IMG/VR virus record: IMGVR_UViG_3300017774_003070
Span: 39,830-103,829 of that record
Reading direction: 5' to 3' (one strand)
Length of the DNA: 64,000 nucleotides
Origin: a virus
Shown here: positions 59,272 through 59,457 of the stretch, in pieces
How the letters are laid out: the number at the start of each line of letters is the position of its first letter
Position numbering within the stretch: the stretch's first letter is position 1
Translations under genes and position numbers: made by a program
The notes under the pieces: generated by a model
Database searches by the model: none
What the model saw: the letters and a program-made list of their open reading frames with translations, nothing else
What the model was told of the DNA's origin: nothing

Positions 59272-59457
59272 TGGTAGTTTGCACAGGATTTGAACTTTAC
59301 TAATTTTTAATTAGTATAAGATTTAAAAGTTCTCACTTTTAAAACCTGTATTTCAGAATTAAAGCAGTTTCCTAACCCCTAGAAGAAGTAAGTTAATACT
59401 ATTGGATTTGAACCAATGTTTCTGTGTCTCTGTGTCCTCGCATTAGACGAGCAAACT
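59272..59457 (-). ncRNA. Nested double-elbow tRNA-like RNA ending in CCA
   Basis: Outer acceptor AGTTTGC/GCAAACT-A-CCA with D and T arms; inner permuted T-AS-D module replaces the anticodon loop; 50-nt double-hairpin insert in the outer T arm. Confidence 0.75.

What the first reader, a model, noticed from the sequence alone, without database searches (positions are those of the whole stretch)
59283..59349. 50-nt double-hairpin insertion inside the T arm of the nested tRNA
Seen: between the 5' T-stem strand (ACAGG) and the T loop (TTCAAAT) lie two perfect hairpins, TTTAAAAGT-GAGA-ACTTTTAAA (GNRA tetraloop) and TACTAATT-AAA-AATTAGTA. The flanks are near-direct repeats (AGGTT / AAGTT), and precise removal restores a canonical GGTTCAAATCC T arm. 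Inference: either a tiny intron or excisable element at a non-canonical site, or a structural appendage at the elbow.
Basis: partly seen in the sequence, partly recalled or inferred. Interest (0 to 1): 0.7.

Follow-up and report, generated by a model that had tools for sequence, protein, structure and literature searches.

The report
Twin-hairpin insert splitting a phage tRNA-like T loop
An uncultured freshwater phage carries a conserved tRNA-shaped RNA gene whose T loop is split in this strain by 50 extra bases forming two perfect hairpins; a sister strain has the same gene uninterrupted, so the insert is a real, recent, discrete insertion, but nothing yet shows that it is spliced out.

Summary
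On the minus strand, 50 bases (59344-59295) lie between T-stem base 53 (ACAGG) and the T loop (TTCAAAT). They form a 9-bp hairpin with a GAGA loop and an 8-11-bp hairpin with an AAA loop. This is the only adjacent pair of perfect hairpins of at least 8 bp in the 104-kb genome.

The key result is a natural allele without the insert. Metagenome contig L004 comes from a related phage (PolA 98% aa, about 90% nt identity). It carries the same RNA gene with an intact ACAGG-TTCAAAT-CCTGT arm. The break point is exact to within a 3-nt GTT repeat. The insert-bearing allele recurs in contigs from two other freshwater samples.

The carrier gene is not a decoding tRNA. It is a tRNA-shaped mosaic that is more conserved (106/110) than PolA third codon positions (74%).

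I found no bulge-helix-bulge motif, no ribozyme or Rfam match, no EndA or RtcB in the phage, and no second copy of the insert anywhere searched. No RNA data were available.

Most likely this is a recent DNA insertion that stays in the transcript, either tolerated or damaging. A spliced intervening sequence, like the 'enigmatic' introns of Lak megaphages, remains possible. The scan has noted related nested tRNA inserts in other phages, none in a T loop.

The parts
59272..59457 (-). tRNA-shaped RNA gene 'Y' (186 nt including ACCA). It has a 7-bp acceptor stem, a D-like hairpin, a 5-bp anticodon-stem analogue closing 69 nt, a 4-nt variable loop, and an interrupted T arm.
   Evidence: The block of homology with L004 begins at base 2 of the acceptor stem and ends at its last base. 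Identity is 106/110 outside the two indels.
59295..59344 (-). The 50-nt insert between positions 53 and 54 of the T arm. Its boundary is ambiguous over a GTT repeat.
   Evidence: Absent from L004. Present in X1, X2 and X4 contigs. No other copy in the genome or fetched loci.
59322..59343 (-). Hairpin 1: a perfect 9-bp stem with a GAGA (GNRA) tetraloop.
59295..59320 (-). Hairpin 2: a perfect 8-bp stem (59316-59298) with an AAA loop, extended by CTT/AAG with one bulged A.
59283..59294 (-). T loop TTCAAAT and the 3' strand of the T stem, CCTGT.
59345..59349 (-). 5' strand of the T stem, ACAGG.
59401..59422 (-). Second strain-specific insert (22 nt) in the same RNA. It is GAAAC plus a complete T-arm-like hairpin, ATTGG-TTCAAAT-CCAAT. 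It co-occurs with the 50-nt insert.
   Evidence: Absent from L004. Present in the X4 contig. It changes the predicted fold.
59369..59384 (-). D-arm-like module (TTC / TAGGGGTTAG / GAA) inside the extended anticodon arm. It is the only GG-bearing D loop in the RNA.
   Evidence: It has the same 14-nt core as the D arm of the tRNA-Glu found next to PolA in L039.
59086..59196 (-). Neighbouring class II tRNA-Leu(UAG)-like gene with a roughly 24-nt anticodon-loop insert. It sits in the same variable RNA cassette.
   Evidence: Rfam tRNA 41.8 bits. ARAGORN calls it only in intron mode.
47174..48316 (-). Phage RNA ligase (PF09414 with a PHA02142 OB domain; phrog_968). It is the only candidate sealing enzyme if the insert were cut out of the RNA.

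Best explanation
The 50 bases are a recent, strain-specific DNA insertion into the T loop of a conserved tRNA-shaped RNA gene (Y). It lies exactly between stem base 53 and loop base 54. The host is an uncultured freshwater tailed phage of about 104 kb.

Y is not a decoding tRNA. It is a mosaic of tRNA modules: an acceptor stem, a T arm, and a long arm in place of the anticodon arm. That long arm holds a D-arm copy and, in this strain, an extra T-arm copy.

I think the insert is most likely transcribed and stays in the RNA. There it would turn the T hairpin into a three-way junction of T stem, hairpin 1 and hairpin 2. It is then either tolerated or cripples the original elbow. If tolerated, the reason may be that the co-acquired inner T arm and the inner GG-bearing D arm can supply an elbow.

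Shown:
- the insert exists and has exact limits;
- it is absent from the sister allele;
- it persists in three samples;
- Y is conserved;
- known splicing signatures are absent.

Inferred:
- the insert is retained in the RNA;
- it is tolerated or damaging;
- the direction of the event was insertion rather than deletion. This rests on the T arm of L004 being the universal form.
For: - L004 has the same gene with an uninterrupted ACAGG-TTCAAAT-CCTGT arm.
- The insert allele is found in contigs from X1, X2 and X4.
- The Y core is 106/110 identical between the two phages. PolA is 89.7% identical at the nucleotide level and 74.4% at third codon positions. Only 4% of 110-nt PolA windows reach 106. 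The flanks are not alignable.
- There is no bulge-helix-bulge (BHB) in any break-point register.
- Rfam finds no intron or ribozyme.
- The phage has no EndA or RtcB.
- Y itself lacks a 7-nt anticodon loop and U33. The base at the would-be position 34 differs between the alleles. There is therefore no need to restore a decoding tRNA.
- Hairpin 1 carries a GNRA loop on the RNA-sense strand. A second tRNA-like RNA of this phage (33120-33218) also carries a GNRA-capped perfect hairpin. This fits RNA-level structural modules.
Against: - In the thermodynamic model the native RNA forms the T stem with mean pair probability 0.20. The value is 0.95 after in-silico removal of the insert and 0.95 in L004. 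A retained insert would therefore be harmful to a gene that is otherwise well conserved.
- Exact restoration of a canonical arm on removal, and identical insert sequence across samples, are also what an intron would show. Lak phage tRNA introns behave this way.
- The phage encodes an RNA ligase.
- No RNA data exist either way.
Confidence: 0.5

Rival explanations
1. It is an intervening sequence removed from the RNA: a new non-BHB intron at the T-loop position 53/54. A host or phage nuclease would cut at the base of the two hairpins, and the phage RNA ligase would reseal the T loop. This would be analogous to the unexplained introns of Lak megaphage tRNAs.
For: - Removal restores a canonical T arm, and nature provides that form.
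- In silico, removing both inserts restores the cloverleaf. T-stem probability rises from 0.20 to 0.98 and the anticodon-like stem from 0.03 to 0.92.
- Y is under purifying selection, so a disruptive retained insert is unexpected.
- The neighbouring tRNA-Leu also carries a short insert.
- The phage has an Rnl-type ligase and a metallophosphoesterase.
- Lak phages set a precedent: introns with presence/absence polymorphism and identical sequence.
Against: - No BHB, no ribozyme core, and no EndA or RtcB in the phage.
- No protein-dependent tRNA splicing is known in bacteria (general knowledge).
- Y is not a real tRNA even without the insert.
- There are no RNA reads.
- Only one lineage carries the insert, so there is no covariation.
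Confidence: 0.25
2. It is a small mobile or DNA-level element: a palindromic micro-insert that transposes or excises as DNA, or a pair of palindromic protein-binding sites. It would have landed in the gene by chance.
For: - It consists of two perfect palindromes with no local template for either arm.
- A 3-nt GTT repeat sits at the junctions.
- The surrounding 520-bp region is a hot spot of strain variation. X3 and X4 contigs diverge at 59040, 59270 and 59554.
- Twin-hairpin micro-inserts were noted elsewhere by this scan (unverified).
Against: - There is no second copy in the 104-kb genome or in any fetched locus.
- There is none in IMG/VR.
- GTDB genomes gave only three chance-level matches to hairpin 1, all without hairpin 2.
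- The two hairpins are unrelated to each other, unlike the ends of IS200/IS605-type elements (general knowledge).
- The 22-nt insert in the same gene has no flanking repeat.
Confidence: 0.12
3. L004 is the derived form. On this reading the two-hairpin arm is the original state of this RNA, and L004 lost it by slippage between the GTT repeats.
For: The GTT microhomology could mediate such a deletion. No outgroup is available.
Against: A deletion that by chance creates a perfect 5-bp / 7-nt T arm with the universal TTCAAAT loop is far less likely than an insertion into one. The T arm is the ancestral state of every tRNA-derived RNA (general knowledge).
Confidence: 0.05

Closest known systems
'Enigmatic' tRNA introns of Lak megaphages (Devoto et al. 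2019, PMC6784885)
   Same: Both are short inserts in phage tRNA(-like) genes with no group I or BHB features. Both are present or absent between related phages and identical in sequence wherever present. One Lak intron is itself tRNA-like, as is the 22-nt T-arm insert in this gene.
   Different: Lak introns were found with tRNAscan's eukaryote settings, which by my own knowledge report introns only in the anticodon loop, and their carriers are recognisable decoding tRNAs. This insert sits at 53/54 in the T loop of an RNA that is not a decoding tRNA. Removal is unproven in both cases.
Archaeal tRNA introns at non-canonical positions (BHB introns of Crenarchaeota, e.g. PMC3241643)
   Same: Short introns can lie outside the anticodon loop, including the T arm, and their removal restores the cloverleaf.
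   Different: Those need a bulge-helix-bulge motif and the EndA endonuclease. Neither is present here. The virus appears to be a bacteriophage: it has PolA, an endolysin and phage virion proteins.
Expansion segments or variable hairpins of structured RNAs (e.g. tmRNA, RNase P RNA)
   Same: These are lineage-specific hairpins, often GNRA-capped, added at loop or junction positions of a conserved RNA.
   Different: Such additions normally avoid the T-loop motif itself. Here the addition splits stem base 53 from loop base 54.

Membership tests
BHB-type (archaeal/eukaryal) tRNA intron | Both splice sites lie in 3-nt bulges that flank a 4-bp helix | tested here: not met
   I checked by hand all four break-point registers allowed by the GTT ambiguity. 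The required 4-nt exon and intron strands never pair (TACA/GTAA, ATAC/AGTA, ACAG/TAAA, CAGG/AAAG). The fold is a plain three-way junction.
BHB-type (archaeal/eukaryal) tRNA intron | A splicing endonuclease (EndA) and an RtcB-type ligase are available | tested here: not met
   PF01974 and PF01139 are absent from the 104-kb phage record, and the control genomes gave the expected hits. The host is unknown and could not be tested.
Group I intron in a tRNA gene | A P1-P9 catalytic core, usually more than 200 nt | tested here: not met
   The insert is 50 nt. There is no Rfam intron match even at E up to 10.
Small self-cleaving ribozymes (hammerhead, twister, etc.) | A conserved catalytic core at the helix junction | tested here: not met
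   No Rfam match. The junction strands are U, U and UUCAAAU only.
Lak-type 'enigmatic' phage tRNA intron | Presence/absence between related phages at exact limits, with sequence identical wherever present | tested here: met
   Window versus L004. X2 and X4 contigs carry the same insert.
Lak-type 'enigmatic' phage tRNA intron | Lies in the anticodon loop of an otherwise recognisable tRNA | tested here: not met
   The position is 53/54 in the T arm. The carrier is not called by ARAGORN or by Rfam tRNA.
Palindromic mobile micro-elements (MITE/PATE/REP-like) | Several copies at different sites | tested here: not met
   There is one copy in the genome and fetched loci. IMG/VR has none. GTDB has three partial, chance-level matches.
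Canonical tRNA (RF00005) | A cloverleaf with a 7-nt anticodon loop, U33, and a D loop with GG | tested here: not met
   The loop closed by CAGAG/TTCTG is 47 nt in L004 and 69 nt here. It begins with AC, so there is no U33. The first D-like hairpin lacks GG.

The most novel reading that the evidence does not exclude
The two strain-specific inserts belong together, in one of two ways.

(a) Both are intervening sequences cut out by a nuclease and resealed by the phage RNA ligase. That would be the first intron known at a T-loop position in a bacterial virus, working without a BHB or a ribozyme.

(b) They are an 'elbow swap'. The old T loop is disabled by the twin hairpin, while a new T-arm hairpin inserted next to the GG-bearing inner D arm takes over. 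This would show modular rewiring of a tRNA mimic within a single phage species.
Probability: 0.2. Interest if true: 0.8.

Novelty: new variant of a known kind. Interest (0 to 1): 0.45.

Why it matters
Short unexplained inserts in phage tRNA genes have been reported only for anticodon loops (Lak megaphages), and no removal mechanism is known in bacteria. This locus has two useful features:
- a natural pair of alleles, with and without the insert, in a conserved tRNA-shaped RNA;
- an insert position, the T loop, that should be incompatible with the tRNA elbow.

If the RNA is processed, the locus is a compact test case for a new splicing route. If it is not, the locus shows how far phage tRNA mimics can be remodelled while staying under selection. 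In both cases the junction ACAGG|TTCAAAT is a simple assay target.

Tried and rejected
I could not fetch the contigs of the closest PolA relatives (P0001, P0002, P0005 at 93-95% identity; P0003 at 80%). Those contigs could hold further alleles.

**Searches for relatives that found nothing useful**
- Searches with the two flanking proteins found no relatives in IMG/VR.
- PolA found only 28%-identity relatives in IMG/VR, and they lack tRNAs.
- Exact-pattern scans of IMG/VR for four pieces of the RNA or the insert gave nothing.
- A fifth pattern gave two matches outside any called tRNA, which I read as chance hits.
- In GTDB genomes the same 19-mer hit 17 sites, none in a called tRNA and most looking like coding sequence.
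- The inner T-arm 20-mer hit four unrelated genomes and gave no host clue.
- GenBank phages gave no match.
- L005 (PolA 67%) has no RNA cassette at the syntenic place.
- L006 and L007 show no tRNA-like hit.

**RNA evidence**
- Only low-share runs (0.06) were labelled RNA. I draw no conclusion about expression.

**Other features checked**
- The promoter-like match inside the insert is below the chance rate.
- An overlapping weak 'tRNA' at 59393-59493 (16.3 bits, E = 2.3) is not conserved in L004. I treat it as spurious.
- Covariation analysis was not possible with two alleles.

Full report
**Context**

The window is bases 39830-103829 of a 103,829-base IMG/VR virus record estimated to be 96% complete. 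It has the following features:
- divergent gene blocks;
- giant virion proteins (3166, 1681 and 1221 aa);
- a family A DNA polymerase at 55804-57855(-);
- an endolysin-like gene at 58527-59033(-);
- an RNA ligase at 47174-48316(-).

All sequencing runs that hold the locus well are freshwater metagenomes. The finding lies in a 520-base non-coding gap (59034-59553) read on the minus strand.

**Observation**

The minus strand reads ACAGG (59349-59345), then 50 nt, then TTCAAAT-CCTGT-GCAAACT-ACCA. The 50 nt fold as two perfect hairpins:
- Hairpin 1 has a 9-bp stem and a GAGA loop.
- Hairpin 2 has an 8-bp stem and an AAA loop, extendable to 11 bp with one bulge.

The 67-nt arm folds as T stem plus these two hairpins, with z = -3.1. 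Perfect hairpins of at least 8 bp are rare in this genome. There are 12 calls in 104 kb, fewer than the 14-21 seen in Markov simulations. These two are the only adjacent pair.

**The carrier gene**

The matching 5' acceptor strand AGTTTGC lies at 59457-51. The unit is therefore a 186-nt RNA, which I call Y. Its parts are:
- a 7-bp acceptor stem;
- a D-like hairpin;
- a 5-bp stem (CAGAG/TTCTG) where the anticodon stem would be;
- a 4-nt variable loop;
- the interrupted T arm.

Neither ARAGORN nor Rfam calls it a tRNA. The loop closed by CAGAG/TTCTG is 69 nt here. It starts with AC, so there is no U33. It contains a T-arm-like hairpin (59417-59401) and a D-arm-like module with GG (59384-59369). 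The core of that module equals the D arm of a tRNA-Glu found beside PolA in a distant relative. Y is a mosaic of tRNA parts, not a decoding tRNA.

**The decisive comparison**

A scan of metagenome contigs with a PolA alignment returned L004, a 6.2-kb contig whose PolA is 98% identical in protein.

L004 carries Y at about 218-325. It differs from the window by two clean indels only:
- It lacks the 50 nt, giving ACAGG-TTCAAAT-CCTGT.
- It lacks 22 nt (window 59422-59401), which are GAAAC plus the inner T-arm hairpin.

The 50-nt break point is exact to within a GTT repeat. The 22-nt insert has no flanking repeat.

Outside the indels Y is 106/110 identical. PolA is 89.7% identical in DNA and 74.4% at third codon positions. 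Only 4% of 110-nt PolA windows reach 106. The endolysin-like gene is 78% identical.

The sequences just outside Y cannot be aligned, and the upstream genes are unrelated. The homology block starts at base 2 of the acceptor stem and ends at its last base. Selection, or recent exchange, therefore acts on the RNA unit itself. In L004 the gene folds as a clean cloverleaf with a long anticodon arm.

**Population evidence**

Logan contigs of four freshwater runs were laid on 58700-59900.
- X1 is probably the source sample and is identical.
- An X2 contig covers 59143-59332 without any difference, which includes 38 nt of the insert.
- An X4 contig covers 59270-59488 with no gap and three substitutions, one of them in the variable loop at 59352. 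It therefore carries both inserts.

X3 and X4 contigs diverge from the window at 59040, 59270 and 59554. In X4 another T-arm hairpin follows Y directly. The RNA cassette is thus a hot spot of strain variation. No RNA run held the stretch well enough to use.

**Tests of mechanism**

- Bulge-helix-bulge: none of the four possible registers gives the required 4-bp helix. The fold is a simple three-way junction.
- Ribozymes and group I introns: no Rfam match at permissive thresholds, and 50 nt is too short.
- Enzymes: the phage has no EndA or RtcB. It does have an Rnl-type RNA ligase with an OB domain and a metallophosphoesterase.
- Mobility: there is no second copy in the genome or in 40 related loci, and none in IMG/VR. 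GTDB genomes gave three chance-level hits to hairpin 1, all without hairpin 2.
- Folding: mean pair probabilities from ViennaRNA are tabulated below.

| RNA | T-stem probability | Anticodon-like stem probability |
|---|---|---|
| Native window RNA | 0.20 | 0.03 |
| 50 nt removed | 0.95 | 0.11 |
| 22 nt removed | 0.77 | 0.83 |
| Both removed | 0.98 | 0.92 |
| L004 | 0.95 | 0.52 |

In the thermodynamic model the two inserts together undo the cloverleaf.

**Reading**

The insert is a real, discrete and recent addition to a conserved RNA gene. The direction is inferred: a canonical T arm is the ancestral state of any tRNA-derived RNA.

What happens at the RNA level is not shown. I rank the readings as follows.

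1. Retention in the transcript (0.5). No known removal signal or enzyme is present, and the carrier does not need to become a decoding tRNA. The GNRA cap, and a similar GNRA-capped hairpin in another tRNA-like RNA of this phage, fit RNA-level modules.
2. RNA-level removal (0.25). Three things keep this open: the conflict between strong conservation of Y and a fold-breaking insert, the phage ligase, and the Lak megaphage precedent. Lak introns are exact, polymorphic and identical across cohorts, and one is itself tRNA-like.
3. A DNA-level mobile or protein-binding element (0.12). This has no positive support beyond the palindromes and the 3-nt repeat.

**Comparison with known systems**

The insert fails the tests for BHB introns, group I introns, small ribozymes and palindromic repeat families.

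It shares the population behaviour of Lak 'enigmatic' introns but not their position or type of carrier. I file it as a new variant of that loosely defined kind, and only provisionally, because removal is unproven in both.

Earlier notes of this scan describe tRNA-shaped inserts in the anticodon loops of other phages. These are unverified leads, and none is in a T loop.

**Limits**

- Only two alleles of Y are known, so no covariation test is possible.
- No expression data were obtained.

Noticed in passing
window 59401-59422 (-) and 59424-59439 (-): The same RNA carries a second strain-specific insert: 22 nt that are a variable-loop-plus-T-arm copy. At its left edge sits an 8-nt near-tandem repeat, ACAGAGAC / ACAGAAAC. 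The new CAGAA can replace CAGAG as partner of TTCTG in the predicted fold.
   Followed up: partly
L004:383-459 (+): The sister phage has, downstream of Y, a D-arm-less tRNA-like unit (Rfam tRNA 28.3 bits, anticodon loop CTTATAC). A D-loop-like sequence (AATTGGTTAC) sits in its variable region. This is followed by a lone T arm (GCAAG-TTCGATT-CTTGT) and a hairpin that encloses a D-arm-like sequence. The pieces look like scrambled tRNA modules.
   Followed up: partly
L004:215-232 (+): In L004 the first 15 bases of Y (GGTTTGCTCGTCTAA) double as the last four codons and the stop codon (G L L V stop) of an unrelated upstream ORF.
   Followed up: no
window 59270 (run X4 contig): In another freshwater sample the sequence just 3' of Y is replaced by a different stretch. 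That stretch starts with a further T-arm hairpin (GTAGG-TTCAAGT-CCTAC). X3 contigs diverge at 59040 and 59554. The whole 520-bp gap is a strain-variable cassette site.
   Followed up: partly
window 33120-33218 (-): A second tRNA-shaped RNA has an intact T arm (TCAGG-TTCGAGT-CCTGA). A 6-bp stem (TTGTAC/GTACAA) closes 34 nt that include a perfect CTATAG-GGAA-CTATAG hairpin with a GNRA loop.
   Followed up: no
window 60388-60458 (-): ARAGORN, only at a lowered threshold, calls a tRNA-Arg(TCT)-like unit with an odd T loop (TGCAAGT).
   Followed up: no
window 59086-59196 (-): The default Rfam gathering-threshold search of the whole window missed this tRNA, although it scores 41.8 bits against a cut-off of 29. 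It appeared only with permissive filters.
   Followed up: yes
L016:3794-3867 and L039:5545-5616, 5891-5963: Distant PolA relatives (37-39% identity) carry ordinary tRNA genes (Met, Glu) and one weak tRNA-like hit just upstream of PolA. The space upstream of PolA may therefore be an old tRNA site in this phage group.
   Followed up: partly
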